A stretch of 62,925 nucleotides of DNA, counting the filler, from Kipferlia bialata (lineage: Eukaryota): the NCBI GenBank assembly GCA_003568945.1. It is 5 parts of 5 records of this genome, joined end to end, with 100 filler letters (N's around TTAATTAATTAA, not from the genome) between each part and the next. Parts side by side here need not be neighbours in the genome. Positions count along the whole stretch, not along the records: positions 1 to 13,808 come from BDIP01000893.1; positions 13,909 to 27,708 come from BDIP01000894.1; positions 27,809 to 41,607 come from BDIP01000895.1; positions 41,708 to 55,497 come from BDIP01000896.1; 1 more part is not named here. One strand, 5' to 3'. A program made the translations under genes and the position numbers. Positions 55 through 61,927 of this stretch are shown piece after piece. The notes under the pieces are model-generated. The model had not been told where the DNA came from, did no database searches, and saw only the letters and a list, made by a program, of their open reading frames with translations. Each line of letters opens with the position of its first letter. The stretch's first letter is position 1.

Positions 55-1123
55 GCCGTCGAGCATGGGACCAAGCAGCTCATCCTCAAGTGAGTCATGT
101 GTATCGTATATTAGAGTGTATGCATCTGCAATCACCCTGTCCCTCTCCTCTCTATTATGGCTACACTGTGTGTTCATACTCTCAGTATATATACTCTTAT
201 ACCTGTATTCATACTCTGTGTATACACTTACTCCAGCCGTGGTGACCGGATCGATGTGTTCAATGTCATAGGGGGGAAGGTACGTCCATGGTATATATGT
301 ATATACTATATACTAGGCTGCGTGGGTGGCTCAACAATGGGTGGGTCATTAATATTACTATCTGTCGGCTCCATATAGCAACGTCATAGGGGGCAAGGTA
401 CTCATACACGTTGAATATATATGTACATGTATACTTCAATAGGGATACTTGGGTGCCTCAATGCGACAGTGGGTCATTAATACTACTATCTGTCGACTCA
501 ATGATTCTATCGCCCCCCCCCCCCCCCTCGGTCTCTATCTCTCTCTCTCGGTCTCTCATATATGTGTATACTTATGAATTCAAGTGAATGTGTGTGATCT
601 CACCCCAGCTCTCTCTCTCTATCTCTCTCTCATATTAGTATATACGTATAATTATTCATAACCATGTGTGTGTGTGTGGTCTCATCCCAGCTGCAGCTGA
701 TCCTGCATTACCTTTCCTTCTAGTATATATATATATATAGACATCATAGATATACATCATATTTTCATCATATATATATATATATATACGATCTCACCCC
801 AGCTGCAGCTGATCCTGCGGTACCCCTTCCCTGACCTGGTCCACTCTGTGCTCATGGTGCCACCCAGGCCCAGGGGTATGTGTATACACACAGATTCATA
901 AGTGTACACATCTATATGATATACCACATAAGAATGATCATGGTGCTCATGGTGCCACCCAGACCAAGGGGTATGTGTGTATGTATATATAGATTCTTTC
1001 TGTACTACATACATGTGCCTAAACCAATACGGGCATTCCATGTTGTGTGTTTAGCCATACCTCCCTCTCCCTTTACATTTCCTCTCACACTCTAGGCTCC
1101 GGTCGCACCCTCTCCCTCACAGT

Positions 1124-1158
<35 letters not shown>

Positions 1159-4100
1159 CTGACCCCCTAGGCTCCGGTCGCACCCTCTCCCTCTCTGCCA
1201 ATGACCTCCCTGTCCTGCTGGCAGTCACAGCAAAGTTCCACATAGGTATATGGTATACATATACATAGATGGGCATGTGTATATTGATATATGTCCCTGT
1301 CCTACTGGCAGTCACAGCGAAGTTCCACATAGGTATGTGGATGTGGTATTCTCACAAACCCATACGGGGTACTCCTTGCATTCCCCTTGCCCGATATATA
1401 TGTTCATATAACAAAGAAGTGTTCATTAACTATTTCTAGTATTATTCATTAATGCACACATGTATCTGTAGTGTTCCTATGTTTATGTCTTCATATACTA
1501 TATATACATACATTATTAATATTATCGCACCCAGTTGGCTATGCCCGAGATTGATTCATGTTATATTCATGTGTATTTCTGCATCATATATATGAATATA
1601 TATCTGGAGGTGTTATACCACCCCACCCCAGTTGGCCTTGCCCAACACATAGTAATCTGTGTGTAGATATATACGTATATACTATTCACATACCTCCCCA
1701 CCCCAGTTGGCCTTGCCCCCGATAGAGATGGGTGCCAACAGCTGTTCAACATACCCATATCAAGGTGGGTGTTGATATAGAGGCCATGTATGTATTCTAC
1801 ACTGTATAGGTATACTATGGCATCCATCTGTTCAACATACCCATATCAAGGTGGGTGGTGTATATACTCATGTGTTGTATTATCATTGTGTACCCCTCAC
1901 TGTCTACCCCCTCACCCCTCAGAGCCAACATGGAGCTGGCCCAGGCTGGATTCACCATGGCATACCTGCCCATAGAGTGAGTGACCCATTTTCATACCTC
2001 CATCTCTATATGTATATGCATGCATGTATATATACATTCATACATGTCTACATGCATCCGTCACCCATCACCTCATGATCACCCATGACCCCCCACTCAC
2101 TCAGTGACATCTGCATTCTTACACATCTATATATTTCTACCTCTGAATATATATATATATATATATATCTTGATCACTCACCCAGTGACATAGTTGTGCT
2201 GTGTGTAGACATGCCATTGACATATATACTTTGGCATACCTATGTATAGTATATCTTATCCATATTTTTGATCCAATGACCCCCTCACCCAGTGACATTG
2301 TGGTGCTGTCTGTGCTGGACGGGAGGGTGCTGGCCATGGGGGGAGGCGACATCAGGTGCGTATACATATATGAGAATATGTACACACGCTATATGTNNNN
2401 NNNNNNTCAGGTGCGTATACATATATGAGAATATGTACACACGCTATATGTATGTATATATGTGTGTGTATATATATGTACATACAATGTATATACAAAT
2501 ATATGGAGGGTACTGGCCATGGGGGGAGGCGACATCAGGTAGCGATATATTGTCTTGTATCACTGTTAGTGAATTGCTTCATTCTCCATCTGCTGACTCT
2601 GTAGATCGGCCAAGCCCCGTCTTTTGTCCTGTTGTATGTGTATATTTATATAATAGAATGTTATGTATATGACATATGTACCTGACCCTAGATCCGCCAA
2701 GCCCCGCCTTCTGCCCCTGGACCCCTTTCCCTACCTGCCTGCTGTGCTGTGCATGCAGGCAGGCACATACTCGGTGAGTATGCTGTACCATATACTAAGT
2801 CATGTACTGAATTCAGTCTATATATTGGTATGCATGCAGGCAGGGACATACTCGGTATGGGTGGTGTATACACCTATACTATATACTATATATACTATAT
2901 ATACTATATACACTGTATATGTCTGCTGTGCATGCAGGCAGGCAGGCACATACACGGTACGGGATACTACTATGTGCTACACTAAAGATGTGAACTCAAT
3001 ATCTGCCCTACTCCCCCCCTGACTCCCAGGATGGCCGCAGGGACATACTCTGTATGTATACTATACTATGCATACTGTATATACACCCTCTGACCCCAGG
3101 ATGGTCCCACCCCCAGGGACTGTCTGTGTGTGCTGTACAGGGACAGTGAAGGTACAGGGAGTGGCAGTCATATGCATATACACATGGGAGTCACTATTAG
3201 ATTGCGAGTGCATATATCAATGGTAGTATATCACTGTGTATATGTCTCTGTCCTCACCCCCCAGGCGAGGTGTGGCTCCAGTCCTGGTTGTGTATATATG
3301 TGTGTCTGTTGCATACCTATGTATCCATTGTATATGCATCTATACCATATATATCCATTACCCCCCAGGCGAGGTGTGGCTCCAGTCCTGGGGTGTCAGA
3401 CTCACAAGCACATACGGACTCACAAAGGCTCAGGTACAGATGGACAGTTATGTGCAGTTATGTGGAGTTATATATACTAGTATATACTAGTATATCTGTA
3501 TGGACTCACAAAGGGTCAGGTGAGGATAGAGATGGATATATATTCAAATGTGTGGGTGTGATTATATGAGTACAGTTACATATGTCTCTACGGACTCTCA
3601 AAGGATCAGGCGCAGATGTAGATGGTTATCGATAGATTATTTTATGTGAATGTACTTTATACTGTGTACTATATTGCACTGAGAATGGCGTTACAAAGGT
3701 ACCCTTTGAGATATCAGAGTGAGCCATTCCCTTTCGTGAGTACGTCTCATTCACTCCTTCTGCCCCACCCCTATATCTCTCCCTCTCTCCCTCTCTCTCT
3801 CTCTCCCTCTCACCCCAGGGCCCCTATGCCTCCCCTCTGTCCCTCCCCAGTGACATGAGGCTGTTGGGCAGGATGTCCGGTGGACTGCCCAGCAGGGAGA
3901 GAGAGAGAGAGAGAGACGGAGAAGGGGACAGGGAGCCGTGCGAGGTATAACAATGTGTATAAGAAACATATATATATATATATATATATAAGACCGAATA
4001 ACTATATATCCTCTCTCTCTTCTGTCATCTCCAGCCACCACGGTGTATATATGTACAATAGTCCGCACCCCATCCCATCACCATATGTCACCCTCTCCTC

Positions 4101-28349: not shown

Positions 28350-31300
28350 ACTGGGGGAGGACAGTCACCATCTGCTCTAGTCTGGGTATGAGAGAGACTA
28401 TACAAACACACATATATAGAGAGAGAAATAGAAATGTCACTGTGTGCATGAATTATACCTAGGTCTCCTGGGGCACGTGACTGAGTACTGGCCAAAGAGA
28501 CTGTCACTGGGGGCAGACTTCCACGTGCCTGGGGTGATGGGTGAATACAGAAAATACACACATATCCATTATCTACTCAGTGACAGAGACATAGAGATAG
28601 AGCATATACTCACCCTGCTCGATGACTATGTCCCCACAGACCCCGTCCAGCTCCTGGGGGTGAGAGAGAGACATACTGACGAGAGGCTAAATGACACTGA
28701 GACTGAGACTGAGAGCATCTTGAGATTAAGATGATAGAACTATAGGGTACTGGTACTGAGACACACTGATAGAGGTAAATAACATATGTGCTCCATAATG
28801 TAAATGAATATGTACTCCATACCATGTGGTCTCTCCTCCGTGTCAGTATGTGTCCTACTAGTTTGACAAGGGCACCGGCAGCTATGAAGGCTGGAGGTCA
28901 AAAGAGACACATGGAAATAGTATACACTCAGAAGTTAACCATATATATATACATATCTATATATAGGTCTGTATGTAGTCCATTGTACCTGCGCTATGCC
29001 TCTCCTCCTGGTTAAGTGGTGCTCCAGCCACTCTGGTTGTGTTGTGCTTCTTGTAGTAGTCGCAGAACAGAGTGGTCACCTTGGTGGGGACCTGGGTGTA
29101 AAGCAGACGTACACATAACATATTTACTATAGTAATACTAGTGATACACACATATATGTATATACTCCGACAGAACAGGGTGGTTAGCTTGGTGGGGACC
29201 TAGGTGTGAGGGTACCATCCATGTATATAGTGGTAGGTAAAGGATTACTAAGATGTGCTCCACATATCCTCTACATGTATATGTGTATGTGTATATATAT
29301 ATATTACTAATATAAATATATACTCTTACCCTCTCAATGGCCCCCTCTATGTGTGACCCCAGCTTGGACGATGATGCAAAGGGCACGTGACAGGCCAGGG
29401 ACAGCAGGACACGGAAGCAGATGACTGAAGCAGCCTTCTTCTTGGAGATACCTAGGATTGGAGAGATGGGGGGAGAGAGTCTCTAATTATATTCATATGT
29501 GTATGTGAATATCTATCTACATTAGCATTGGTACTCACCTATGCCGTACAAGGGGTGCTCATGACACCTGATGTAGTTCCCGTCCTGGGGGTCGAACCCA
29601 AGCTTGGCCATGATCTGGGTTGAGTTGAGATACATATATACTACACGACATTATACTATATACTGTATACAAAAGAATTATGTCAAATGTGTATGCATAT
29701 ATTCAAAGGACACAAGCTTGGCCATGATCTGGGTTGAGTAGGGATATACTTCATGTCATCATAATATCGAAATACATACTTAGAATAATCTAAGAACTAA
29801 TTACTTCACTTCACTAAAAGTAGTGTTACCTCTGGGTCTAACTCTTATACACATGTTATAGAAATACATTAACACACCTCACAGTCGGACTACGAGGAGT
29901 ATGCAACCTCGAAGCACGATTCATTATATATATATTACATGGAGAGACTATGAACACCCAATTATACTATATACCTCACTGTTTGACTCCGATGAGTATG
30001 CACTCTCACATCCACATCCACTTACATATATATACGTATACATACTGAGACTATGCATATACATCTCATGGATGTATGCTATATGTACCTCACTGTCTGA
30101 CTCTGAGGAGTATGCACTCTCGAAGCACAGCTTGGCAAGATGGCCAAAGGGGTTGGCCGTGCTGGGGTTATAGGGAATATATATATATATATGGATAGCT
30201 CCACTATATATCCGTGCTGGGGTTAGTCTATATTATCTCTACCTCTCACTTTATATACATGGTTATATGGTAACTACAAATGACTACATAAATGTACAGA
30301 TACACAATATGTACCTAGCTATGTTGAGTGACCCATCCCTCCCGTGGTAGGGTATGTCATGCACTGTGGATATATATATATATATATATACCACTCATAT
30401 ATATATCTATATACACTATACACCTAGCTATGTTGAGTGACCCATCCCTCCCGTGGTAGGGTATGTCATGTACAGCCTTGGATCTGATGGTGGGCTCCTG
30501 GTTCAGGACACGCCTGGGTTTAGAAGATGAACACATAGATAATTATAGACACATACACAGATCCAATAGTGTAGAGTTAGCGGAAGAGTAATTTTAATTA
30601 AGTAATTTGTATGGGCTCCTGGTTCAGGACACGCCTGGGGTCAGGTTATACATATGTATCAATATATGTAGAGAGAGACAGTAATATGTGTATAATACAT
30701 GGATGGTGGGCTCCTGGTTCAGAACACGCCTTGGGTTAGATTACTATACTCTTTGATGATGAGCATAGGGTAACAGAGAACACTATATGGCGATACTATA
30801 CAGAAGTAGTACACCAATTAAGTGTACCTTACGAGTGTTGTCAATAGTGTGCGGCTGCTCTGCATGAAGAACAGGGTGTACTTCACTATCCAGTCGTCGA
30901 TGTCCTGAGGTAAGAGACTACACGAATACGTATATACAGTTATATATACGTATACATAGGTGTTGTAGAAGGAGAAAGGCAAGAAAGAGGAATTACACAC
31001 GTAGTATTCCCAACTCACCCCTGTGATGATGGGTATTGGCTGCCCCTCTGTGATGCAGTACAGTGCGTTGTATATCTCCTCTGACACATCCGGTGCCACA
31101 ATGACAGCGGGGGGCTTGGGCACAAACATGTCGGGCATGCCCCTTATATTAGCATTATGAAACAGAATATAGGGTAAGAAAAGCCGAAATAATATTTAGA
31201 GACATTCAAAATTTCGATACAACCATGTCGGGCATGCCCCTGTGTATTAGCTATAATGTAGCTATTATAAGACTATAAATCACTGATAATATATATAGGG

Positions 31301-34300
31301 CTTGGGCACAAACACGTCGGGCATGCCCCTATAGATTAGCTTTAATATAGCTCCAATTAGAGAATTAATCACTGTATATGTATATATGACTTGGGCACAA
31401 ACATGTCCGGCATGCCCCTTATATTAGCATAAATAAGACCACAAATTACTATTTATATGTATTGATCGATATTTAGACTATTACTATCTACTATCTATCT
31501 CTCTCTATATATATATATACAAGAGAATTGTTACATATACACATACCCATGTGCTATGAAGGCGTCGTGTCTGGGCTTGAGGGCCCTGTCAACACCGAAG
31601 CCCCTGACGGTAAGAGTCAGTGATAAATACATATTAGTAACAGAGATACTATACACATATACAACTAGTGTCGGGACTTGACGGCCGTAGCCGCTTGGAT
31701 GTGATAGTGTAATGTATATATACACGTACTGTATATAATATACCTAGGGTGGTCTCTCTTCTGAATGCCAAGGGCACTGTATGTGGAGTGCCTAGCCCCG
31801 TACTTGTCGAACTGGTCCATGTTCGCCTCCTTCTTCACATGGGGGTGGGGGCCCATCGACTGGAAGGCTGGTGTAAAGTACGGTATTTACAATACTTGTG
31901 TAAATGAACCAAATTCTAAGACACGCAAGATATTATTATAGAAACGTACCCATGGGCTCTGGCGAGTACATGTCTGTGTGACCGGGCTGGTAGGACTTGG
32001 TCTCTCTCTGATATCCCTGCAGGTTAGTACTACTTTAACATGGACACAAGCAACAAACAAATGCACATTACAAACCAATACTAATATGCACAATAATACT
32101 AAAAGGAGGGGAATGAGGCTACAGTTTAAAAATTGTAAATAGTGATATATACCTTTGTGGGCTCTGATGTGAACACTGGCTGTGCTTCAGTCATCTCGGT
32201 GTCGCCTGGAGTGAGATACTATCGAATGTAGATATATATGCATATATATATATATATATGTATATATATGAGAGAGAGAGCGACAGTCATCTCGGTGTCG
32301 CCTGGAATATGAGATGAGTATAGATATATAGATATACATAAGTGCATACAAGAGAGAGTGAGAGAGAGACTTCTAACCTGCCTCCGAATGGGTTACTGCT
32401 ATACTGCATATCATGAAGAGTATACGGTATAATATCCTCATATCTGTACACTAATGTATATAGATTACTAACCGGCCAGATTCCCGAATGGACTGTCCGA
32501 GAGTGCCCCTTCCAGAGACAGGGAGTATGCAGTGGATAGGCCTGTGGTTAAGGTATAGTATTAAGACACTTGGATCTATGTATGTGCATGTATATGTGTA
32601 TGGCTGTGCATACACATATACATACACATACATAGACACAAGTATCCAGATATATCCATACATGGTAAACACTTTCATGGTATCTTATTGTATAGACGTG
32701 TACCTGGTGATGTCAATGGCACACCGAACGCTATGTCCGAACTTGGGATACATGGTAATATAATATACACATATAATGTGACAATACTATATATAATACA
32801 CATAATGCAGTGAACCTGGTGATGTCAATGGCACCCCGAACTCAGGGTACCTGAGATACATGGATATACACATTATACATATATGATATATATATATATA
32901 TAAATATAAGTTGTATATGCATTGTAATTTAATATACCTGGTGATGTCAATGGCACCCCGAACTCAGGGTACTTCAATGTGAATACATGATATTTACACT
33001 ATACATATATGAATATAAAAATAATCATATAGAGTAATGTATATACATACCTGGAGATGTCAATGGCACCCCGAACTCTGGGTACTTGAAGGATGACACA
33101 TCCACAGGGACAGGGGGGGAGGGGGGGCGGACGTCCTAACGATAAGAACAGGTTCCAAACAGCTTACAATATAGTTCCATACTAATCATATGATTATATG
33201 ATATATAAATATATTATGATTATATGATTTATATGATAGATAATATATTCATATGATATGCAGGTACCTGGCAGTTGATAGTCTGGTTCATAGAAACAGA
33301 GCATAACTGAAACAATAATAGTATACATGTACTTTTACACATGCACACATGCAGGTACTTGTCTCAGCTGGTAGTCTGGCCCACAGACCATAATCTAAAC
33401 TGTAAACATATGAATATATATATGTATAGTAACATATATATAAAAATAGAGGCGTGTGCAATACCTGTCTCAGCTGGTAGTCTGGCCCACACACCCTGTC
33501 CACCTGACCAAGTACCTCCAGGGCACTCTCTCTCTCCTCCTTGGTGCCTGTGCCAACACCCCTAATGGTAAGCAGGTATAAAGATACTTATATATATGTA
33601 CCATATATTTATACATATACACTGACTCCAAGTGACGTTACCTCTCTGGTAGACGGATTGACAGCATGTTGTAGTTGGGTCCGTGTCTTCCAAGCATGGT
33701 GGAGCGACAGGTGCCTGAAGAGTCAGAACTAAGAAGTCAATATTTCACAATATAGAATATGGATACCTGGTGCTCCCTCCACGTATGATAGACCCTCCCT
33801 ATATAGGGTGGGTAGGTACCCGAGGCACGACGGGAACACCACGGCATAGTCCTTGAAGACAGGGGGGGTGACACTCACAGAGGTGGGGGTCGGGAACTCA
33901 ACCTAGTAAGGTCAGTGACGCCACGAAAGAAGGGTGGGGATTGATACACCCTATGTTGAAATATATAAATATATATCCTCATACACACCTTGTTGTGCCT
34001 AAGGATGTCTCTGTTGAAGCACACTGATAGGCATATGGCATTGGTACCCAGGGACAGGACGGGTGAGAGATAGTATGTGAGACCATTGCCATCCTTCTCG
34101 GACAGGGGGGGGAGGTTCCAGCTGGGAGTCAGTGTATAGGTAAAGATATATACATACAATGTATATATATGAATGTATGAATAGGAATATATGGATATAC
34201 ACTAGATATGTTGCAATCCTTCTCGGACAGGGGGGGGAGGTTCCAGCTGAGGGTGAGTATAGGTTCATATGTACTAACTAATGACTAACATACTAATGAA

Positions 34301-34415
34301 TTAGTATAGAGAGACCTATACATATAGCATACACTCACTTCTTGAGGAATGCCCTTGTGTATGTGCTGTCCGCTGTGCTGATGGACAGAGAGTGCATGGC
34401 CTTGATGCAGCAGGT
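27925..34415 (-). CDS. Large hypothetical protein (~20 exons, both ends uncertain) with a dsRBD-like motif
   Basis: Phase-consistent spliced reading from MHSLSISTADSTYTRAFLKNWNLPPLSEKDG through FQSMGPHPHVKKEANMDQFDKYG, NPFGHLAKLCFE..YGIGISKKKAASVICFRVLLSL, to RLERMVTVLPQFFWYGLDGPQ; continues toward the scaffold edge. Confidence 0.7.
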
Positions 34416-34430
34416 CTAGGGTAAGAGAGG

Positions 34431-34461
<31 letters not shown>

Positions 34462-34572
34462 GTGGAGAGAGATTGTGCATTGCCTTGATACAGCAGGTCT
34501 AGAGTTGTAGCGGGGGGGGGGGGGGGGGGGGGAGGGGAAAAAAAGAGGCACAGACATAGATTGGAGAGAGTT

Positions 34573-37500
34573 ATGGGTCCAATTGGCACGTTTCATGCAC
34601 CTCCCTACCGTATTGGGTTCACGGTCCCCTTCCAAGAGTGCATGGAGGTGAGACAGCTTCTATATAATTGTATTCAGTAGTATATATGTAGTCACCGTAG
34701 TACGGTATACAGGGTATATGTTGTGTTTAGAGTGTATATAGTATGCGTATTTACCAGCAGAGTATCCCTCTTGTCCGTGAGGCTGTGCTGTGGTATGCCG
34801 AGGAGGAGATGCACAGATACAAGTTCGAGTGCAATACCTACGATGGACACGAGAGGTACAGTGTGTTACTGACACTACAGCAGTGTTCCGTTAGTTTGCT
34901 TTGTGTCTCTGTGTTCCATACTATTCCTTCCGTCCCAACTATTATAATATCTGAGTGTTTTGTATCTCCATGTAATAGCACCATTTAGAAAGTGGCACTT
35001 ACACTGGTATATATATGATGTATTGTAATGCAATTATGTCTCTGGTCTCATTATGAACTGAGTACTCATGTAAGGAAAGAAGAGATGAGTGAGGAGGAAC
35101 TACTCTCTCTTGTCTCCAACTACGGTGTGCCCATGACATACCACTCACACCACTCGGGTGAGTGTATGTATAGTAGTGTAAATTATGTACTATATATACA
35201 CTATATACTATATACTGTATATTGTATAGTATATAGACTATATAATATAGTGTATATATAGTGAGACCACTCACACCACTCGGGTGAGTACTACATATAT
35301 ATTCACTACTCACTGAGTGGTGAATATATAGTGTATATAGTATATTGATATATAATGATATTGATATATAGTATAGTGTACATAGTATGTACTACATACA
35401 CCACTCGGGTGAGCAGTGTATATAGTATGTATATAGTGTGTATATAGTGTGTATATAGTGTGTATATAATACATATGTGTGTATATGTAGTACATTCATA
35501 ACTACGATCTGCCCATGTCATATCTCTCACACCACGCGTGTGAGTGTATGTATAGTGTATATTGTATACTAGGTATTATATACTATATCCTATATATAGT
35601 GTATATATAGTGTATATATAGTGTATATATTGTGTGCCCATGACCTATCTCTCACACCACTCGGGTGAGCAGTTCATATTAGTTATAACCCATGGACATA
35701 TGTACAGTATCCAATATATGTGTGAACAGATACTGTGTCACACAGCATATATGTATCTACACAATTCTCACGCAGTCTGTCTCTGCTGCCATTCCAACTA
35801 ATTCTCCTATTAGAACTGAACATCTCTCTCTCTCTCTCTTTGTAGGAGTCTCTTTCTCCCTCTCATATACTTCTACCTCTCACCAATTTGCCATTGATTC
35901 GACAAGTCAGTATTTACATATACATGTTTAATATGTATGGCCTTTACAGTATAGGGAGAGAGGACTTACTGTCAGTCTACATCCACAATCTATGTCACGA
36001 AGATGATACATCAGTGCCTGACAGTGATACTGATACGTCAGTGTCTGACAGTGATTCTGACAGGTTCAGGGCCGTTCCCTGGCAGGTAAAGTCCCGCTAC
36101 AGTATATAGGTCTCTTGTTGCCTCAATTGTATCAGTATCAGTATCACTGTGTGTTGTTACATGATTCGTATCCTTGTCAGTGTAATCATGTGTTCTTACA
36201 ATTGTTGCAGTTTCCGACATATCAAATGTGGGAACTGTTCTAATAGAGGGTGAGAGAATCTATGTAAATAGTGGTTATCATGCCTATCCCCTTGATATAT
36301 ATGATATATAATATATATATAATATATAGCTAACACAGGAGTACGCCGAGGTAGAGGGGCTTGTCAAGGATTCCTCGTGGGTGGAGGTAATGTAATAGAG
36401 TATATTCTGTGTAGTATATAGGTAATGAATAATAGTATATACTCTATAGTACATTGATGCATATACCATATACTATATAGTATAGATATACACTCTGGAG
36501 CTCGTCAAGGATTCCTCGTGGGTGGAGGTAATGATATATAGTATATACAATATTGTAAATATATATACTCTCTACTGGATTGCTACCTACCCATACCTTC
36601 TTCTCTCTCTCTGTCTCTCTCTCTCTGTCCATTCGTATTTTCATCCTATACTTGGTTGGGTGGCAGTGATTCACTACTACTACATCTATTGTATATAGCA
36701 TATATATGTGACACTAGGTTATCCCGCCTAGTTGCACTGCTCTGTTGGGCTATCTCTCACTCTCCCTCTCTACTTCTCTCTCTGCATCTTTATAGGACTA
36801 GTATGGTAACAAGGTTGTACTAATTCATATATATAGTTAATATATAATTAATATATATCTAAATCAAGGTTGTCTTGCCCTGTTACACTGGTGAGAGTGG
36901 AAGGATGCTACAAGGGGAGGTGTTCTTCACGGTGGTGCAGGTATGGGCCATACGTACCCATATATCTTCTTTTCTGTTGATTCATTGACGACGATACACC
37001 ACTGTAAGTACACTATACCCTGTAATACTGCCAGTATGGTGACACAATACGACGCTACTTCAAACCTACTGATGCTCTAGCTAGACCTACTTCTGCGTCT
37101 CAAGACATAGTGACATACGCAATACCTACTGTTGTATGATAACATTTTGGCTCGAGCCTAGTAGTACTGGTCTATAACCCTGAACGACTAATAATACCAG
37201 CTGCTGCCCCCAAAGGGAATGGAATTGATTGAGGAGAGCAGCATGGACACCAGGTCAGTGAGACCAAGTCTTAGTCTAAGATACTATCTGAAATTTAGAG
37301 TCTGAATTACCAATACTGTACTCTTGTGATATTGCACAATGCCTGATATTTTGTCGACGAGAGTGTAGATATAATTGTGAATACATCGTGTGTCATGAAT
37401 AGTCTGACTCCTCCTTGTAAGTGCCCTTAGGCATTATTGTCTCTCTCTCTCTCTCGGTCAGTCTCCTCCTTGTCAGTGCCTTTAGGCAATAGTAAGAGTT

Positions 37501-37863
37501 CACTCCAAGAGATCATCTCTCTCCCTCTCTCCCTCTCTGTCAGTCTCTATCTCTCTCTCTTTCTCTCATCCTAGTGTGGCAGAATACGCAGACAGGGGCC
37601 TCCTGGACTTCAAAGAGATGCTAGGTACACAGTGCATATATTCAGATATGTATATATTTACATATATCCTACATATATGCTAGTGTATATAGTGTGTATT
37701 CTATAGATGTTGCATACTATGCATAATACATATGAATTCTTATGAAAACTAGGTCCATACATGTATACTATATACTATTTACATGTTGTCAGGTACAAGC
37801 AGACCTGACTGGGTATACCATACAGTACAGCCGCCATTCTTCTCACTCGCACAAACTAGATAG
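34573..37863 (+). CDS. Hypothetical protein (~9 exons)
   Basis: MGPIGTFHAPPYRIGFTVPFQECME|QSIPLVREAVLWYAEEEMHRYKFECNTYDGHER|KEEMSEEELLSLVSNYG..|GREDLLSVYIHNLCHEDD..|EYAEVEGLVKDSSWVE|VVLPCYTGESG..|LLPPKGMELIEESSMDT|SVAEYADRGLLDFKEML|GTSRPDWVYHTVQPPFFSLAQTR*; phases are consistent. Confidence 0.6.
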
Positions 37864-39070
37864 CTCAGTATAATCAGTATCCCTTACCCTCACAGAGAGA
37901 GACTCTCCTCCACCGTTGTGATACACTAGTATCCTACTTATATAACAATGCATCCTTCACATATATGGTATTCTCACTCTAAGAGAGGGAAACGCGTCTC
38001 CACTCCTACCTGACTGGTCATGGTCTGCGGCCAGAGAAGACTGGACTAGTCTCTGCCATGCTCACAAGGTCATGGGGTTAATTAGTCATTATGTTACTGG
38101 TAATTATTAGTAATTACAAATATGAATAGAGAGAGAGAGAGAGAGCGAGAAGTCTCTGCCATGCTCACAAGGTGGTGGGGATAATTAGTTATAAACAGAG
38201 AGAGGAGAAGAGCACATTTGGTAATTGGTAAATGAACAGTGAGGGTGAGAGTGCTCACCAGTCTATGGGGGTAATAGCCATGTCACTTTGATACTGATAC
38301 ATGTGTGTTAATAAACATAGAGAGAGAAGGTGATAAGTTCATGGGGTAAGACCCTTACCATAAGAGTACTAAAACCACCAGAGAAGGATCTCTGAGGAAT
38401 AGAATGCAATTATACTCACATTGTCATTGGGAGACTCTTTGGAGATAGCTTAAACCCCAACAAACAAGTTTTCAACATCAACCCTTATCACACAGTGTCA
38501 CACTGATCTGTGTGACCCTCTCTTAGCCTAAATTCTTGCAGTCTATCGTCCGCGTGACAAAGGTAAGCCCTTCCCTAACATTGCTCACTCTTCCCCCAAT
38601 ATGGGCTAGATTGCATTCCTATACACTGCTGTGATAAATGTATTGCTCACGAATTGTCTCTCTCTGTCTCTCTCTCCAATTTCGCTCGCTCCCCCGTATC
38701 TCCCCATATAGTTCTTCATGTATCTCGCCACAGGCTTCTCTCCCAATCTGTCTCTCAACCCCCCACCCCCCCTCTCTCTCACTCTCTCTCTCTCTAGATA
38801 TTCGCCTTCCTTTCTCCTCACCTATCCACTGCTGTACTCATTGATAATACCCAGAAGATATATATATATATGTATTAATATTGGTGAAGCAGACTGGTAC
38901 ACTGAATATACAATGATACCTTGTGGTGTGTGAATGTGTTTACTACTTGGTAATACCCAGAAGATATATATATATGTATATATATACATGGGTGAACTAA
39001 CACTGACTGCACAGTGTTACCTTATAGTATAGAGCACTGGACATATATTTACTAATTGCTCATACCCAGA

Positions 39071-39100
<30 letters not shown>

Positions 39101-39101
<1 letters not shown>

Positions 39102-39820
39102 TGGCTGCAGCAGAGTGGTACACTGACTGCAGAGTGCTGCCCAACATACAATGGGATGGAAACAACAGGGAGAGGGCGGTGTGCATATCACTGGCCAACA
39201 TAGGTAAGAATGAATGCCATTCATTAAATGGTACAATTATTATGTATTAGGATAGTAAATGGATACCAGGTAACAACACAGCCATGCTGACATGCCATCT
39301 GTCAGGGGGTGACAGTATATGTATACATATGGATATGTATAGTACACACTGTGTACTTATACTGTATGTCCCACCTTAGGTCATAACACTACCATGATTA
39401 CATTATATATTCTACACGCTGTATACATATACTGTGTACCTCACCTTAGGCCATAACACTGCCATGGTTACATACCACTTGACAGGGGATGACATGTCTC
39501 AGAGGTGGATGGTACTGACACTCAATGATGAGAAGAGTATCGATACTCAGAGCATCTCAGGTATGTATAGGTATATATGCATATATATATATATATATAT
39601 ATATATTAGTATATTTATATATATGTATATGATATATTGAAGGGAGATCGAACTATAACTACTCAGAACATCCCAGGCAATCATATACTGGATATAGTGC
39701 GGGTACTATATGTATGCCTCTTAGTAGGAGACAATGACATTTACCCCTTCACGCTCTCTCTCTTTCTCTCTCTCCATACTAGGCCCTCCCAATCCAGAGG
39801 GTGTCATCGGCATGACTCAT

Positions 39821-39858
<38 letters not shown>

Positions 39859-41423
39859 TCTCTCTAAATATATATATTGAATCTAATCTTAGGCCCTTCC
39901 AATCCAGATGGTGTGTTCGGCATGAGTCTCTGTGTGTGTGTGTGTCTCTGTCTATCTCTCTCTCTCCTTACAGTATCTAATNNNNNNTGTGTGTGTGTGT
40001 CTCTGTCTATCTCTCTCTCTCCTTACAGTATCTAATATCAGGGCCTCCCAATCCAGGGGGTGTCTTCGGCATGTCTCCCTTTCTCTCTCTCTCTCTCTCC
40101 CACTCTATAAATATATATACAATTATAAATATTGGATCTAACCATAGGTCCCTCTAATCCAGAGGGCGTCTTCGGCATGTCTCTCACCAGGGTGGGGGAG
40201 GTGGTTGTAGCATATGGGGGCAATGCAATGAAGGGAACCAATGCTACATTCCAGTATGCATGGTTCATGGCAGTGTACTCAATCGACACTGCAGAGTGGA
40301 AGGCACTGCCATATATTGAGGGTGTTTGCCCCCAACCGCGTAAGTTTCCAATCACTTTTGCCGTTGGTGACTGTCTAGTGGTGACTGGGGGGTGGAGCAA
40401 GAAGAAGAGGACGAAGCAGGTTGGTATCGTTCCACACACACATATATATATATACATACATGTGTGTGTGTGTAAGTATAGAGGATCTTGTGGTGACATG
40501 GGGGGTGGGGCAAGAAAAGGAGGATAATACAGGTGACCTGTTCACAGATCCATATGTACATATGCATATATGTATATATAGATAGATAGAGAGAGAGGTA
40601 TGGAAGAAGAGGACTATACAGGTACACCTCTGAATACATATTTGTATGTACATCTCTTTGCATATATATATGTGTGTGTGTATTTGTTCACTACTATATA
40701 TACTGTAGGTTATGGTATACATGTTCACTCTCCTAACACCTAGGACACCTGTGAGTGGTCTCCGGAGACTCCATGGACTGTTTTGTATATTTTAGTATAT
40801 TGAATGTCCTCTCCTAGATACTAACTACCTAGGACACGTGGGAGTGGTCCCTTGATACAAGGGAGTGGACACAACGGGGGGACACTCCACTGTGTCCAAC
40901 AGCGGCAGGTATGGTCGTATACCTATATGCTGATGCCTAAGAGCTACCCACGGCACCTTCCACCACAGCTACTGTATATCTTCTATACTATAGTGTATGT
41001 ATAGTTATGCATATATGTAGGTAGTAACACACAGGTGTCACTCACGGTACATCCCACCACATCGACCTCGGTACCAAGCACATTGTATACAGCACTGGAG
41101 AGTGGCTTATGGAGTCCATACATACTAGCCCATGTGCACCTGGTGTGTTAGACATTCCCCTATACGGTGAGTATCGGCTATCGGCAAGGTTGGAGAAGGT
41201 TGAGGGGATGGGTAAGGCGGTACACGTGCCGTTTCTACGCGATAACGTCTCCCTGGAGTGTGTGCCACTGTCTCCCCTGCCTCTGAAGTACCATAAGTAC
41301 AGGCACTTGGAGAGGTCTAAGAGTGTCATGCTTAATCCTAGTACTATGCTGGTGGTGGGCAATGATATCACGTTGCTAGTGGAGATCAATAGCCAATATC
41401 TGGGACCTGCAGTGGATTGTTAG
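39101..41423 (+). CDS. Kelch-type beta-propeller protein (5 coding exons, probable 5'-UTR intron)
   Basis: MSLTRVGEVVVAYGG..FMAVYSIDTAEWKAL..PQPRKFPITFAVGDCLVVTGGW..DTWEWSLDTREWTQ: Kelch GG/Y/W pattern; paralogous to 54070-55140. Confidence 0.8.
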
Positions 41424-41607
41424 GGGAGCAGACTGGAATAGACTCGCTTAGTTTAGGGCGATATCAGAACCCGCTCATCTCTAGCATGCTGCATAACAGT
41501 ATATAGACTTAGACCCAGGTGTTGTCAGAGAGAGAAAGGTATATATCTGTTTAGAGAGAGAGAGACGATTTATTGGAGTGGACCCTTTTGCCAAAAAGGC
41601 AGAGTCC

Positions 41608-41707
41608 NNNNNNNNNNNNNNNNNNNNNNNNNNNNNNNNNNNNNNNNNNNNTTAATTAATTAANNNNNNNNNNNNNNNNNNNNNNNNNNNNNNNNNNNNN
41701 NNNNNNN
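41608..41707. other. Artificial scaffold spacer
   Basis: N44-TTAATTAATTAA-N44. Confidence 0.98.
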
Positions 41708-41895
41708 ATCCCCCCCATCCCCCCCCCACCCCCCCCCCCCCCCCCCCCGCCTTCTCTCAATACATAGCCCTTACCCCTAGTGCGCCGTCGCCATGTTCCA
41801 TTCACATTGTCTCTCTCTCTCTCTATATATATATGTATACTCCTAACCATCAGTGCGTCGTAGCCCCCTAGGTTGTCTCCATGCCAGTCACATAG

Positions 41896-41937
<42 letters not shown>

Positions 41938-41991
41938 AATACATATAGTCCTAACTTTCAGTGAGAAGGAACCATGCCCCAGGTTCCATTC

Positions 41992-42026
<35 letters not shown>

Positions 42027-42045
42027 ATGTGTATCTTACCCTCAG

Positions 42046-43720
42046 TGCGTCGTAGCCATGCCCCCCAGGTTGTGTCCATGCCTGTCACATTCACACCCTC
42101 CCAGATAGCACACAAGATGTCCAATGTGTATCAGGTATGCGTTGTTGTGTATACCTGTAGTATCCCTCTCATATCTTATGCTATTACATATATATACCCA
42201 ACATCAAGCGACCCCCCCCCCCCACCTCTGTCTCTCTTTGCGGCCATCTATCCATTTCTCTCTCTCTGTATATATATGCACATTCTTAACCTCAGGCCCA
42301 CAGTCAGACTCGTAATCTCTCTCTCTTCTTTTCTCTCTGTTACTGTACTACATATCTCTATCATTAATTAATCGATGATAGTAATCTAGTTTAACATTAA
42401 TATATCAGGTCCCCCCCGACAGAGTGATGCTTGTCACCACTGGCACCCAGAGTCTCTTCACCACTGGCACAGTCGGAGACATAGCAGGTATGTATGTATA
42501 TACATGTATATTTTGCAATTTACCATACTATCTTACCTCCAAGGGTAGGGGCTCTCTCTCTGAGGGTGTATTGTATTCGTGTCATATCTTCATCCCCCTC
42601 ACCCTCAGTGGATGGCACCCTGTCTCTGAGGGTGTGTCTCAGGGCAGCCCAAAGCACTCTGTGGAAGGTATCTCTCTCTCTCTCTCCATATTTGTCCCCC
42701 CCCCGCCCTCTCTGCCCCCCCCCCCCTTCCTTCATTCTCTCTCTCATTCTCTCTCTTTACCCCTAGACCACTGTGATGGAGCTCCTCCGTGAGTCCTACC
42801 ACACCACAGACGATGTCAACCCCATACTCCCACCCCTGCCTGCTCCCTTCTCAGGTATAGATATATTGATGTATATATATATATAGTGTGTATTCATATC
42901 CACCTTCTCAGGTGTGTGACCTATGTGCTATGATCACATATATATGTATATTTGCGGTATATAGAGTGGTCACTGTTGTTTACCCCCAGACACTCCTCCC
43001 TTTTGGCTGAATGAGACATGACTGAGAATTATTTGTTTGTTTGTAGTATGTATATATTTACCTAATATATTAGATTCTCTTAACCCCCAGACACTGCCCC
43101 CTTTTGGCTGAACGAGGACATGACAGAGAAGGGGAAGGAGGGGGAGAAGGAGGGAGAGAGAGAGACACCAGGACAGGACGGGCCCAGAGCATACGGTATG
43201 ATATATATGTATGCTGTTCATAAATATATATACATATATATTCATCATATTCTCTCTCTCTAAGTGTGTCCCACTTACTCACTCCAGGTGCTGACATTGC
43301 CGTCGGCAATGCTGAGCTCTTCATGTTCTCTTTCATACATGTAATACTATGTATGATGTATATACATTATTATTATACTTTGTATTCACTCCAGGTGCAG
43401 ACATTGCCGAGCGTCTCATGTTTGGCCAGGTGCAGCCAGGGCAGAACCACAGGGACAGGAGGCAGGTATGTATATGGTATAGTGTGCGCACTCAGCGTAT
43501 GTACTCTCTCTCTCTCTCTCTCATCTCTATTACGGCCCCTCACCCCAGATGGTGCATGTACCTTCTCAGTATGTGTTGGATATGTGTATAATATGTGTAT
43601 GAGTGTATTTCTCTATTACATACTGTCTTACCCCCAGATGGTGCATGTCCCCTCCCAGGACAACAGGGCCAAGGCAATGGCAAAGGTCATGGCCAAGGTA
43701 TAGCACTATACTCCATATAC

Positions 43721-43757
<37 letters not shown>

Positions 43758-43864
43758 GACACTAGGGCAAAGGCAATGGCCAAGGTCATGGCTAAGGTAT
43801 CAATTCATGTATAGATAAATATATATGTGGAGATATATGTATAAAGAGAGAGAGAGCGGGGGGG

Positions 43865-43900
<36 letters not shown>

Positions 43901-45167
43901 ACCAGGGCAAAGGCAATGGCAAAGGTCATGGCTAAGGTAGTGTTATGCTGTGTATGTTGTACATGTATGTACTATATATGTGTATCATATACTTTGAATG
44001 TGCCGTTGTCCTAACCTCCAGGCCAGCAGTGCCGACAGGGATAGAGGCAGGCGCCACAGGCTGAAGAACATGACCAGGGAGGAACTACGGTGAGACTTCT
44101 AACGACTCCTAATAACTTCTACTGCCTTCTAGTACCCAGTGTTTAACTACTATAGTACATGACTCAGGAACAACTCAAACATGAGCGCGAATCTCTTCCA
44201 GACTCTTTTCAATGACCTCTGTTGACTGCATATACTTTGTAATTTTTGACTCCTTCTGACACCTCAGGGCCCCTGTATATATATTGTATATATATTGTAT
44301 ATAGACTCTAATATTCTACTGGACCCTATATATACTACACATGACCCCTCAGGGCCCATGTGAATGAGGATGTGCCCAGTACTCCTCTCTACTTCTTCTT
44401 GCCAGTCATTGAGTGACTCATCTATATATACCATTTCTTACATCAGGGGGGGGCCCATGTATATATAGTGTATATATATAATGACTATTTCTTACCTCAG
44501 GGCCCATGTATATACATTGTATATATGTACTAGTACTGACTTCTACTGACTTCTACTACTATATTGACTATTTCTGACCCCTCAGGGCCTCTGTATATAT
44601 CTTGTATATATATACTAGTACTGATACCTCAGGGCCTATGTATATAGTATATATTGTTATACTCCTTCTGACCCCTCAGGGCCTCTGTGAAGGATGACGT
44701 GCCCAGATACATCCGGCGCCTTAGAGAGAGAGAGGCACGGGGGATCAGGTAGAGGTTATCTATTACATGTATCTATTACTATATATAGATAATATATACC
44801 ATATCTATACGAGACAGGGGGGATCAGGTTGATTATTGTTGTACTAACTCTCAGCTTCCGCCTGTCCCATGAGCAGAGGCAGCCCCCAATTATTGATATC
44901 TTATATATAACTCTACGTGTATACAATAATTACATTGTAATTATACTCTTATATACAGCTTCCGCCTGACCCGTGAGCAGAGGCAGCCCCCCAATTTTCG
45001 ATATCTTATGTATTACTCTATATATATGTACACAACATTGCAATAATGCTCTTATTTACAGCTTCCGGCTGACCCGTGAGCAGAGGCAGCCTGCCCACCC
45101 AGGGCAGAGGCCACAGACCAGACACTCACTGGAGGTGGTGCAGACTAGGCCAGGGAATATGGTGCAG
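42046..45167 (+). CDS. Hypothetical protein with possible ubiquitin-like segment, multi-exon, partial
   Basis: VVSMPVTFTPSQIAHKMSNVYQ|VPPDRVMLVTTGTQSLFTTGTVGDIA|VDGTLSLRVCLR followed by charged exons (RHRLKNMTREELR, DVPRYIRRLREREARG); no start or stop found. Confidence 0.55.
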
Positions 45168-45200
45168 GTACTTATGTATATATATACATATATACCCATA

Positions 45201-46744: not shown

Positions 46745-47080
46745 GTGTAACAGCATCGCTTAGAATGATACGCTAGGTCGGCAGCGCCCCAATAACACGT
46801 AAGTGTCGCCTGGCGAGGCCTAGCGCCCTATATATGCGAATGGAGAGGCAAGCAATCTCACACTGAACCGTACTGGCCAAACCGTCTCTATTCCAATATG
46901 ATTGATCGACTTTGGGGGCCACTTTGTTTCTAATCAATCTTTTGCTTTAGGCCTTGTAAAATCAGTTATTCTGAGTCAATTGTACGATGATACCCTCACT
47001 GGCTGCAGCAAAAGATTCCCTCATGGTAACGTGAGTGCCTGAGGGTGGGGTGCTCCTTCAGTAAGGGTGAAGAGGAGAGG

Positions 47081-47111
<31 letters not shown>

Positions 47112-49585: not shown

Positions 49586-49618
49586 AAATGTAAGTCAGAG
49601 AGACTCTGACTTACATTT
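49586..49618. repeat. 15-bp-arm hairpin spanning a splice donor
   Basis: AAATGTAAGTCAGAG-AGA-CTCTGACTTACATTT. Confidence 0.9.
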
Positions 49619-51093: not shown

Positions 51094-51128
51094 TACTAAC
51101 TTAGTACTAACTTAGTACTAACTTAGTA
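51094..51128. repeat. (TACTAACTTAG)x3 tandem repeat
   Basis: Three 11-bp units; GTACTAA-C-TTAGTAC is self-complementary and recurs near 53465. Confidence 0.85.
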
Positions 51129-55369: not shown

Positions 55370-55430
55370 GGAAGAGTTATGTACCCCTGGTATTTGTCGG
55401 TCTACACCATTGACACTGGTCTCATTGTAG
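55370..55430 (+). pseudogene. Kelch gene fragment
   Basis: Encodes YPWYLSVYTIDTG; GTCTACACCATTGACACTGG is identical to 54412-54431 of the upstream Kelch gene. Confidence 0.5.
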
Positions 55431-59960: not shown

Positions 59961-61927
59961 TCATTGGTCATAAACCACACGACATGAGCATACTCTCTCT
60001 TGCTTGTTACAGCGTTGGACAGTGATCAGCACCCGATGACCCTGGGCTAGCCCCACTTCAATAACCTCTCTATGGTGTACACTGCTGTAGGTGGTACTAG
60101 GCATCTGGATCTCGGCCTCCTATATATCAGATATGATCATCATACTACATATAGCCAGCGGAATCAAGGCCATGAACAAGATACATAAATGTTAGTCACA
60201 GTAATGTAAATGTGACACTTGCAATTGCAATGTGCATGGGGATAGCCATGACGAGAACCCATGTTGCTACACCAGCGCCTCCATCCGTACCTCTCCCTCA
60301 GCGTTTAGGCAGACCACATAGTCGGTGTCACTCTCGGCATACAAGACCTGATCGTGGGATGGATACATGCATATTTGCATATATATAGCGAGTGTGTGAG
60401 AGAGAGAGAGCGAATGATGTTTTACTCTCGGCACACAAGACCTGGTAGTTAGGAGAATGTGATATATTGTGGTATATGAATAATGTAGATTCAGCCTCGG
60501 CATACAAGCCCTGGTAGTAACGACTTCTAACTCAGGAGAGTAAGACTATAGCTAGTATGGAGTTTATAGAAAATAATTTGTTTCATTCTGTATGCATGAG
60601 GCACTTGACTGTGGAACGGGTACAATTACACACATATATACGGAGAGCATATATGGAGAGAGAGTAAGAGAGAAATATCCCTACTCTCTGTATACATGAC
60701 CTGATGATTTTGTGATCAGAAGGGACATGGACGAAGACAGATATGCATTCACCAAGTACTCTGCCTACTCACACAATGGTGATCATCCGAAGGTCACTAT
60801 CTATACTATACAGTGTATAGTCTCTATATACACAATCACCTCAAGCAAGTTAATATATTACCCTACTTCTTACTCTGTCTCTTCACATACTGCGATGCAT
60901 ACATATATACATACACATTTCATATACATATATACATTGTATAGACACTGATACATACCTCATATTCTGTCTCTTCACACACTGCCATGTGTATCTCACT
61001 GTTTGTGCTGTTGACAGTGATAGCACGCTCTGGCTTCACAACCTCTCCTGTCAGCCAGTCCTAGGGGAATGAGGTATCTTCTCAATGCGATTAGAAATCA
61101 AAGAATAGACACTGTATACACTTTGTACCTTCCCTGTGATATGCCTGAGTCCCAGCCTGTCTCCCTCTGTGATGTACCAATACATACACACACATATATA
61201 CATTCATTATCATTACTAATATATATACACACTGTACCTTTCCCGTTAGGTATGCCCTGGGTCTCAGTCTGTCTCTATGATATATATATATATGTATGTA
61301 TTACTACCCATACTATGTACCTTCCCCGTTAGGTATGCCCTGGGCCTGCGTCTGTATGTCTCTATGATATATATATATATATATGTATGTATGTGTTACT
61401 ATCCATACTATGTACCTTCCCCGTAAGGTATGCCCTGGGTCTCAGTCTGGCCAGGTGGGGGGGAGGGGCAGGGGACCCCCTCCTCCTACACACCCTACCA
61501 TAGCAGGGGCCACACCAGAACAGATGATGCACCTGCTCCATCAGGGCTATGAGTGATTGGGGGGGGGGGGGATAATGGGAGTGATAGAACTCGCAGTCAT
61601 CTGTAAGATACCCTCTCCCCTGTAGATAACCCTTCTAGCGTGTTAAGTATATATATGTGTAGAATACATAGAATACATATATGTATACTAGCATGGGTGA
61701 CATGTCCCTACCTCAAGCACCTGTCCTTTGACTACGACCAGGTCCCCTATCTTCAGCTCATACAGGGGGAAGGACTCCTCAGTACACGGCTGCATCCTGG
61801 GTTGACAAGGAGAGGAGTGAATAAGGGGGGGGGGGGGCGGAATACTACAACACACTTGTGACACAGACAGCCACACACATTGACAAACACGTTACGCACA
61901 ACAAACCCCTTACCCAGCTATACCCAT
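59961..61927 (-). CDS. Divergent eIF5A-like paralogue lacking the hypusination motif (6 exons, ~177 aa)
   Basis: Exons 61927-61914, 61796-61712, 61532-61416, 61060-60959, 60347-60291, 60119-59961 give MGIAGMQPCTEESFPLYELKIGDLVVVKGQVLEVHHLFWCGPCYGRVCRRRGSPAPPPHLARLRPRAYLTGKDWLTGEVVKPERAITVNSTNSEIHMAVCEETEYEVLYAESDTDYVVCLNAEGEEAEIQMPSTTYSSVHHREVIEVGLAQGHRVLITVQRCNKQERVCSCRVVYDQ*. This is colinear with the eIF5A SH3-like and OB domains. Confidence 0.75.

What the first reader, a model, noticed from the sequence alone, without database searches (positions are those of the whole stretch)
240..45170. 'Exon-echo' introns: polarised serial copies of exon ends with their splice sites
Seen: many long introns hold partial copies of the neighbouring exon end, separated by TA-rich microsatellite spacers. 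Copies of [branch point + AG + first 10-40 nt of the exon] lie upstream of the true exon (e.g. CCCAGCT(GCAGCTGATCC) at ~603, ~686, true ~798; CAGTTGGC at ~1532, ~1629, true ~1704). Copies of [last 15-40 nt + GT donor] lie downstream (e.g. ~944-974 echoing 849-880; ~1295-1337). Only the true exon has both halves contiguous. The same rule holds in six or more unrelated genes on both strands. Inference: a systematic microsatellite-associated duplication process grows introns from exon boundaries, so the spliceosome must ignore many near-perfect decoy sites (strict exon definition or recursive splicing). I do not know of this architecture being described.
Basis: partly seen in the sequence, partly recalled or inferred. 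Interest (0 to 1): 0.88.

Follow-up and report, generated by a model that had tools for sequence, protein, structure and literature searches.

The report
Introns stacked with captured allele fragments
In the free-living protist Kipferlia, two-thirds of the introns checked hold short copies of the neighbouring exon's end with intact splice signals, which the one transcript examined skips; the copies differ from the real exon mostly at silent codon positions, so they were likely captured from other alleles during faulty DNA repair, which would make these introns a record of past genetic exchange.

Summary
The window encodes Kipferlia bialata proteins. In three annotated genes, 50 of 74 introns hold 100 echoes (55 donor, 45 acceptor; control about 0.1; wrong polarity 0). 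DNA contigs span echo junctions, and a spliced contig uses the outermost sites at 8 of 8 exons predicted blind.

A neutral self-copy simulates at 0.37-0.48. Silent divergence is uniform (~0.2), amino-acid changes grow with distance from the exon, and splice signals are intact. Best reading: each echo comes from a different, once-functional allele, left by aborted inter-allelic break repair, and exon definition ignores it. Recursive splicing is not supported.

Donor-side minisatellite analogues are known (human F7), and this scan noted similar copies in sea-urchin and annelid genes. I found no description of this density or of the allelic signature. No second isolate and no raw RNA reads were available.

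The parts
55..13049 (+). Gene KIPB_004255 (P0002, CPSF_A-domain protein, 5' partial): 32 exons; 20 of 31 introns with echoes (25 donor, 9 acceptor)
   Evidence: exons 1-8 matched by spliced contig X2 record 9
14393..25171 (+). Gene KIPB_004256 (P0003): 23 exons; 20 of 22 introns with echoes (22 donor, 26 acceptor)
28072..34397 (-). Gene KIPB_004257 (P0001): 22 exons; 10 of 21 introns with echoes (8 donor, 10 acceptor)
42046..45167 (+). Ten exons of the gene for P0004; 6 of 9 introns with echoes
   Evidence: model equals residues 1-264 of database protein P0004
35955..37624 (+). Ab initio gene piece, 1 of 4 introns with a donor echo
39101..40419 (+). Hand-curated gene piece, 6 echoes in 2 introns, strongly third-position diverged
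60270..61546 (-).
379..399 (+). Donor echo of exon 237-279 with GT; its intron head shares a 31-nt block with the true head (341-371 vs 469-499)
691..712 (+). Acceptor echo of exon 803-875
943..972 (+). Donor echo of exon 803-875 with GT
1096..1118 (+). Acceptor echo of exon 1171-1245: 23 of 23 identical, behind a different branch/AG sequence
1294..1334 (+). Donor echo of exon 1171-1245 with GT
1825..1856 (+). Donor echo in a 158-nt intron, same donor hexamer as the true site; the transcript skips it and leaves the 72-nt option unused
24729..25114 (+). Series of four acceptor echoes (24749, 24829, 24933, 25027) before the last exon of P0003
28178..28458 (-). Doubled intron: two diverged, alignable versions of one intron (77 and 85 nt) around a 119-nt pseudo-exon (acceptor echo + filler + donor echo)

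Best explanation
Each echo is a short exon end with its own intact splice signal that differs from the real exon mostly at silent positions, and it is likely a leftover of DNA-break repair between two diverged alleles. Inferred steps: (1) a break falls in an exon within ~50 nt of one end; (2) the long side invades the other allele and copies its exon end plus ~75 nt of its intron; (3) the new strand cannot re-anneal, because allelic introns are too different and the remaining exon homology is too short; (4) it is end-joined instead, so the donor allele's end becomes the working exon end and the old end stays next to it as the newest echo, pushing older echoes inward; (5) selection removes events that copy both splice sites or long exon stretches. 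Shown: polarity, echo length 11-50 nt, ~100-nt spacing, silent-site bias, intact signals, and use of the outermost sites in one transcript. The spliceosome likely copes by exon definition, pairing the last acceptor with the first donor across a GC-rich exon.
For: Mismatches by codon position 33/760, 20/761, 109/756. pS 0.195, pN 0.030, ratio 0.154 (CI 0.107-0.215), 0.14-0.19 in each gene; wrong frames give 2.1-2.4; self-copy simulations give medians 0.37-0.48, minimum 0.20 in 1350 runs. Replication in four other genes: 22 echoes, ratio 0.24, CI 0.15-0.41. Silent divergence is not overdispersed (p=0.37) while replacement divergence is (p=0.018); echo-echo pS 0.198 equals echo-exon pS, while pN doubles (0.063 vs 0.033); third-position changes are GC/AT-symmetric (39:34), other positions lean to AT (28:14). 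The nearest echo has pN 0.016 vs 0.048 for farther ones (Fisher p=0.003, paired p=0.001). Splice dinucleotides changed at 5 of 200 bases, close to pN. Echo signals score like true sites (p=0.18 and 0.26) and unlike other AG/GT; branch motif in 29 of 45 echoes vs 40 of 74 true vs 42 of 827 other AGs. Flank homology is partial (top 5%: 6 of 55, 12 of 45), and the doubled intron shows two alignable but diverged versions. Echo length stays 14-35 nt in exons of 150 nt or more. No close paralog was returned for the three query pieces (longer proteins only). Precedent: aborted SDSA plus end joining gives tandem duplications, and SSA uses >50 bp (PMC8654963, passages). Metamonads lack NHEJ, and fornicates lack Rad51A but keep two Dmc1 paralogs (PMC8516963, passages).
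Against: No second allele was seen: X1 contigs show no other letters over the laid stretch (contigs drop variants). Allelic divergence of ~0.15 at silent sites is therefore inferred, not measured. Some echoes share variants or junctions with each other (12 sites where all echoes differ from the exon; a 60-nt spacer shared at 98%), so secondary amplification also occurs. 28 of 100 flanks rank no better than the median unrelated intron, more divergence than ~20% substitution alone would give. The break-in-exon geometry rests on the distance effect only. The 119-nt pseudo-exon with both sites is skipped in the annotation, but I have no RNA for it, and simple exon definition would include it. U1-70K, U2AF35 and SF1 were not detected in K. 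bialata (PMC6679479 supplement 10), so the usual cross-exon bridge may differ. RNA support is one contig, 8 exons, same sample as the DNA.
Confidence: 0.6

Rival explanations
1. Echoes arise as exact self-copies (sister template). Later ordinary recombination in a very diverse population swaps in another allele's exon and intron head, so exon and echo end up allelic. Frequent collapse or conversion could add constraint on the echo.
For: Explains the silent-site bias and uniform pS as well, and also shared junctions and shared variants among echoes.
Against: Needs a recombination event within ~100 nt after almost every duplication, even for the nearest echoes (pS 0.16-0.19 at pN 0.02). Few high-identity intron-only duplicates exist (106 of 117 repeats involve exon sequence). 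It does not by itself cap echo length. It still requires diverged alleles.
Confidence: 0.16
2. The donors are homeologs or paralogs (hybrid or polyploid history, or gene families) rather than alleles of one population.
For: Uniform pS fits a single divergence event. Several echoes share variants against the exon. Divergence is higher in the replication genes (pS 0.34).
Against: No paralog returned, clusters of one member. No second copy in the laid contigs. Echo-echo pS equals echo-exon pS, which two lineages would not give simply.
Confidence: 0.1
3. One reading: microsatellite-driven tandem self-duplication across the boundary, then neutral decay.
For: Polarity, direct orientation and ~100-nt spacing; TA density is higher in echo introns and low in echo-free genes; some flanks are clearly homologous.
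Against: Predicts pN/pS of about 0.37-0.48; observed 0.154, below all 1350 simulations. Echoes with identical exon parts often have unrelated intron heads. Junctions are not clearly repeat-enriched. It would need exon silent sites to change about five times faster than neutral intron DNA.
Confidence: 0.05
4. Echo sites are kept because they are used: recursive or nested splicing, or translated alternative isoforms, or relics of mutually exclusive exons.
For: AG kept in 45 of 45 and signals at full strength. Donor echoes lean to exons ending in AG (32 of 37 vs 24 of 37, p=0.056).
Against: 35 of 50 introns carry only one echo type, so nested pairs cannot form. Only 5 of 40 AG-ending donor echoes score as acceptors, and 0 of 8 GT-starting acceptor echoes score as donors. 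Only 8 of 100 would give an open in-frame insertion. Complementary sites at the far end are not above background (3 of 45, 3 of 55). No whole-exon copies (max 0.69 of an exon) and no wrong-polarity relics. The transcript carries the true exon's letters where echoes differ at 22 positions.
Confidence: 0.06
5. Assembly artefact: haplotypes or strains stitched in tandem.
For: An allele-like signature is what mis-joined haplotypes would show. Duplicates do flank short N gaps. The genome paper describes a short-read assembly (PMC5874029 section 7).
Against: Echo junctions have no N and lie inside separately assembled contigs with 0 differences at ordinary depth, 245-453. Up to four different copies stand in one series. 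The decay gradient with distance is not expected from mis-joins.
Confidence: 0.03

Closest known systems
Boundary-spanning minisatellites: human F7 IVS7 37-bp VNTR; also CBS, LMNB2, PDGF, 6-16 (PMC1557585, passages read)
   Same: A splice donor is repeated downstream in the intron; the pseudo-sites are functional but only the most upstream is normally used in F7.
   Different: Single genes, regular near-identical monomers, mostly intronic (4 exon nt in F7), donor side. Here: most introns of several genes, both donor and acceptor sides, 11-50 exon nt, irregular and mostly unalignable spacers, and coding-type divergence.
Tandem duplication by aborted SDSA plus end joining (C. elegans helq-1 and BRCA1 mutants; PMC8654963, passages read)
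   Same: Proposed route: an extended break end fails to anneal and is end-joined, leaving a direct tandem overlap.
   Different: There the template is usually the sister and the defect is a mutant. Here the template would be a diverged allele in a natural lineage, and intron divergence would cause the failure.
Exon definition, exon-centric proximity rule (PMC9225289, passages read; Reed and Maniatis 1986 seen only as cited there)
   Same: Competing sites closest across the exon win.
   Different: That paper ties short introns (<250 nt) and lower eukaryotes to intron definition. Here a protist skips an equal donor in a 158-nt intron, with a reduced spliceosome.
Intron gain by tandem duplication of an exonic AG|GT segment; introners (recalled; review PMC3488318, passages only)
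   Same: Duplication around splice signals changes gene structure.
   Different: No new intron results, and the spacers do not form a repeat family within the window. Existing introns lengthen.
Tandem exon duplication and mutually exclusive exons (recalled)
   Same: Copies of exon sequence lie next to the exon and show coding constraint.
   Different: Copies never include both sites of one exon, have strict polarity and are absent from the transcript examined.

Membership tests
Boundary-spanning minisatellite (F7 type) | Repeat unit spans an exon-intron boundary and reiterates a splice site | tested here: met
Boundary-spanning minisatellite (F7 type) | Regular, near-identical head-to-tail monomers | tested here: not met
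   spacing 45-204 nt; flank homology in top 5% for only 18 of 100
Boundary-spanning minisatellite (F7 type) | Only the exon-proximal site is used | tested here: met
   one spliced contig, 8 exons; rare use cannot be seen in contigs
Boundary-spanning minisatellite (F7 type) | Copy number polymorphic between individuals | not testable with these tools
   no second isolate
Aborted-SDSA tandem duplication | Direct, adjacent duplication | tested here: met
   100 direct vs 2 inverted
Aborted-SDSA tandem duplication | Copies identical at birth (sister template) | tested here: not met
   nearest echoes pS 0.16-0.19, pN 0.02
Aborted-SDSA tandem duplication | Microhomology or templated insertion at the junction | tested here: inconclusive
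   donor intron unknown; dinucleotide repeats at junctions 55 of 100 vs 47%
Aborted-SDSA tandem duplication | Dependence on repair genes | not testable with these tools
   only published inventories (PMC8516963 passages)
Exon definition | Sites closest across the exon beat equally strong sites closest across the intron | tested here: met
   7 of the 8 introns after exons 1-8 of P0002 hold echoes and all use the outer sites; strengths equal
Exon definition | Any AG...GT pair of exon size is included | tested here: inconclusive
   22-nt chimeric piece at 3030-3051 skipped by the contig's loose end; 119-nt pseudo-exon skipped only in the annotation
Exon definition | Cross-exon bridging factors (SR proteins, U1-70K, U2AF) | not testable with these tools
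   published table: SR-type hits and U2AF65 present; U1-70K, U2AF35, SF1 not detected
Recursive or nested splicing | AG|GT ratchet with its own branch/acceptor and regenerated donor, or matched inner pairs | tested here: not met
Intron gain by duplication or introner | New spliced intron; repeat family | tested here: not met
   (window only)
Mutually exclusive duplicated exons | Whole-exon copy with both splice sites | tested here: not met
   max 0.69 of an exon copied; wrong polarity 0

The most novel reading that the evidence does not exclude
Kipferlia introns are ordered stacks of fossil alleles. Recombination between hyperdiverse alleles routinely aborts at exon-intron boundaries and adds about 100 nt per event, supplying about half of intron length. 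A single genome thus records many past outcrossing events in time order, in a group where sex has not been observed, and a reduced spliceosome has moved to strict exon definition to tolerate tens of thousands of full-strength decoy sites.
Probability: 0.5. Interest if true: 0.9.

Novelty: new variant of a known kind. Interest (0 to 1): 0.8.

Why it matters
[quoted passage not shown] If echoes are allele fragments, one genome gives evidence of exchange between diverged alleles and an estimate of silent diversity (~0.15), testable with a second isolate.
2) Splicing: every echo intron is a natural competing-site experiment with equal-strength sites on both sides, in short introns of a protist with a reduced spliceosome. 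The ~50-nt cap may mark how much exon sequence activates a site.
3) Genome evolution: a route of intron growth driven by recombination, not by transposons.
4) Practical: my ab initio predictor called several echoes as micro-exons, so gene models in such genomes are at risk.

Tried and rejected
- No whole genome is held, so nothing genome-wide was counted.
- Sequencing runs: no RNA holder is on record; X2 is only guessed to be RNA. I treat its record 9 as a transcript because it joins GT..AG ends.
- Reads could be laid only on 1-2860, so splicing of all later introns rests on annotation.
- Metagenome scans for another isolate found nothing (P0001; P0002).
- Imported filler from other introns: only own-intron or low-complexity matches within the window.
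- Microsatellite as breakpoint: not clearly enriched at junctions.
- CpG decay as cause of the third-position bias: 22 of 162 mismatches.
- Detection bias: the ratio stays 0.13-0.15 in fixed windows.
- The first replication run gave a ratio of 0.47 because one gene was read in the wrong frame, one first exon was mis-set and overlapping calls were counted. One search fixed these and left out the four predicted genes without echoes (0 of 19, 13, 2 and 4 introns). In that set I removed predicted micro-exons by hand, so it tests codon bias, not polarity; only the P0004 gene was later confirmed.
- The donor echo called at 3052 is borderline and chimeric; it was kept in the counts.
- Literature: searches showed no description of this architecture in Kipferlia or of allele-derived echoes. 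'duplicat' and 'microsatellite' occur 0 times in the genome paper's main text. The library lacks most subscription journals, and I did not open that paper's supplements.
Full report
WHAT THE WINDOW IS. Five contigs of up to ~13.8 kb joined by N-linkers. Single-exon queries returned one protein each, 98-100% identical and named Kipferlia bialata KIPB_004257, 004255 and 004256 (P0001-P0003). K. bialata is a free-living fornicate with 124,912 annotated introns, annotated with AUGUSTUS and transcript hints (PMC5874029; passages and section 7). Exact spliced mapping of the three proteins gave 77 exons and 74 introns, independent of the echo rule. No whole genome was available.

OBSERVATION. Contig X2 record 9 matched all eight within a few bases, with contiguous record coordinates and 0 other letters. 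Five GT..AG joints are listed, the other two follow from the contiguous pieces, and the loose end reads into the exon at 3100 (compared by eye). X1 and X2 are one sample and contigs hide rare forms. With an exon-only anchored search, 50 of 74 introns hold 55 donor and 45 acceptor echoes, against 0.06 and 0.08 per set with non-adjacent exons. A stricter unanchored search gave 46 of 74, with controls of 5 of 5550 pairs each. Wrong polarity is 0. X1 contigs span echo junctions without differences.

ANATOMY. Echo length is 11-50 nt (medians 26 and 23) and 14-35 nt in the 18 cases with exons of 150 nt or more. Successive sites are about 100 nt apart (medians 98, 101). The core from last donor to first acceptor (130.5 nt) equals an echo-free intron (136.5 nt). 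Order is donors then acceptors in all but one intron. AG is kept in 45 of 45 and GT in 51 of 55. Echo signals score like true sites and are stronger as often as weaker (acceptor 24:21; donor 22:24, 9 equal). Yet they are often different sequences: identity is ~0.9 on the exon side and near background 10-13 nt into the intron. Gapped flank homology is partial (median ranks 0.34 and 0.18). Exons are 60% GC, introns 37%.

THE NEW RESULT. Mismatches between echo and exon fall 33/760, 20/761 and 109/756 on codon positions 1-3: 111 silent and 51 replacement, pN/pS 0.154, cluster-bootstrap CI 0.107-0.215 over 65 exon ends. If an echo were a self-copy decaying neutrally beside a fully constrained exon, simulations give medians 0.37-0.48 and never less than 0.20 in 1350 runs. 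Wrong frames give 2.1-2.4 and fixed windows 0.13-0.15. Four further genes give 0.24 (CI 0.15-0.41; 22 echoes in 11 of 17 introns, after a faulty first run). Silent divergence is uniform across echoes and the same echo-to-echo as echo-to-exon; replacement divergence is uneven, doubles echo-to-echo and is three times lower in the echo nearest the exon. So there are two layers: about 0.15 of silent divergence that built up while both versions were coding, and a few percent of neutral decay since. Splice dinucleotides changed at 5 of 200 bases, the decay rate. The echoes are not translated as a rule: 8 of 100 would give an open in-frame insertion, and the transcript has the true exon's letters. 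Two versions of an exon end that were both coding, with different but working intron ends, are most simply two alleles (inference). The doubled intron at 28178-28458 shows two such versions side by side.

MECHANISM. Inferred: a break near an exon end; invasion of the other allele by the long side; synthesis ~75 nt into its intron; failed annealing; end joining. This gives the polarity, the length cap (more than ~50 nt of homology would anneal or collapse; SSA uses >50 bp per PMC8654963), the newest echo nearest the exon, and intact signals. Aborted SDSA plus end joining makes tandem duplications in C. elegans mutants (PMC8654963, passages). Metamonads lack NHEJ; fornicates lack Rad51A and have two Dmc1 paralogs (PMC8516963, passages); Dmc1 tolerates mismatches (PMC11514202, PMC7809202; abstract starts only). 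Silent diversity of 0.1-0.2 is known in some species (recalled). A variant in which self-copies are later reshuffled by allelic recombination fits nearly as well, and homeolog donors cannot be excluded. TA-richness goes with echoes but may be a product of the same repair rather than its trigger.

SPLICING. The layout is D D ... A A [exon]. The only adjacent acceptor-donor pair is the true exon, and the shortest donor-acceptor pair is the one the transcript does not use, even in a 158-nt intron with the same donor hexamer. This is the exon-centric rule of PMC9225289 (passages), which expects intron definition for introns under 250 nt. Recursive and nested routes fail their tests, apart from a borderline lean of donor echoes to AG-ending exons (p=0.056). 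Against a simple version: the 119-nt pseudo-exon is skipped in the annotation, and U1-70K, U2AF35 and SF1 were not detected in this species (PMC6679479 supplement 10, read whole). Recognition likely also depends on exon-like content.

COMPARISON. Closest known are boundary-spanning minisatellites such as F7 IVS7 (PMC1557585, found, passages). This works like them for splice choice but fails membership on regular monomers. Earlier notes of this scan describe boundary copies in a sea-urchin gene and an annelid gene (unchecked; the lines shown do not mention a codon-position test). My searches showed no description of the Kipferlia pattern or of allele-derived echoes, in a library that lacks most subscription journals.

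VERDICT. New variant of a known kind, interest 0.8. Limits: one window, three annotated genes plus four modelled, one RNA contig, no second isolate.

Noticed in passing
window 13809-13908, 27709-27808, 41608-41707, 55498-55597: N-TTAATTAATTAA-N linkers: the window is five separate contigs, so gene neighbourhood across them means nothing.
   Followed up: yes
window 2352-2451, ~15066-15175, ~39950-40015: Duplicated stretches on both sides of short N gaps; likely scaffolding overlaps, not biology.
   Followed up: partly
window 28178-28458 (-): Whole intron doubled with a 119-nt out-of-frame pseudo-exon; best single test of exon definition.
   Followed up: partly
window 3030-3051: 22-nt chimeric piece (start like exon 9, end like exon 8) between AG and GT; the RNA contig jumps over it.
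   Followed up: partly
window 46900-60100: Genes with short, TA-poor introns and no echoes (0 of 32 predicted introns; 4 and 33 TA nt per kb against 125 in echo genes). Why some genes escape is unexplained.
   Followed up: partly
window 62377-62850 (+): Intronless ORF with SMI1/KNR4 (SUKH) domain, E 7e-19; a bacterial origin is possible but was not tested.
   Followed up: partly
window 54010-55140 (+): Intronless 376-aa ORF with weak Kelch/beta-propeller hits.
   Followed up: partly
window 35140-35670: Five copies of a short donor-like junction in TA-rich DNA, a likely echo series of a gene I did not model (by eye).
   Followed up: no
window 41780-42045: Three acceptor-type copies upstream of the first exon of the P0004 gene, at a contig start; not counted (by eye).
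   Followed up: no
acceptors of the 74 annotated introns: 3' ends are C-rich (CCCAG in 34 of 74) with a branch-like motif within 20 nt, rather than U-rich.
   Followed up: partly
P0002, P0003, P0004: Proteins are full of short low-complexity and tandem peptide repeats (RE runs, RDRDP, AKAM), a sign of slippage in exons too.
   Followed up: no
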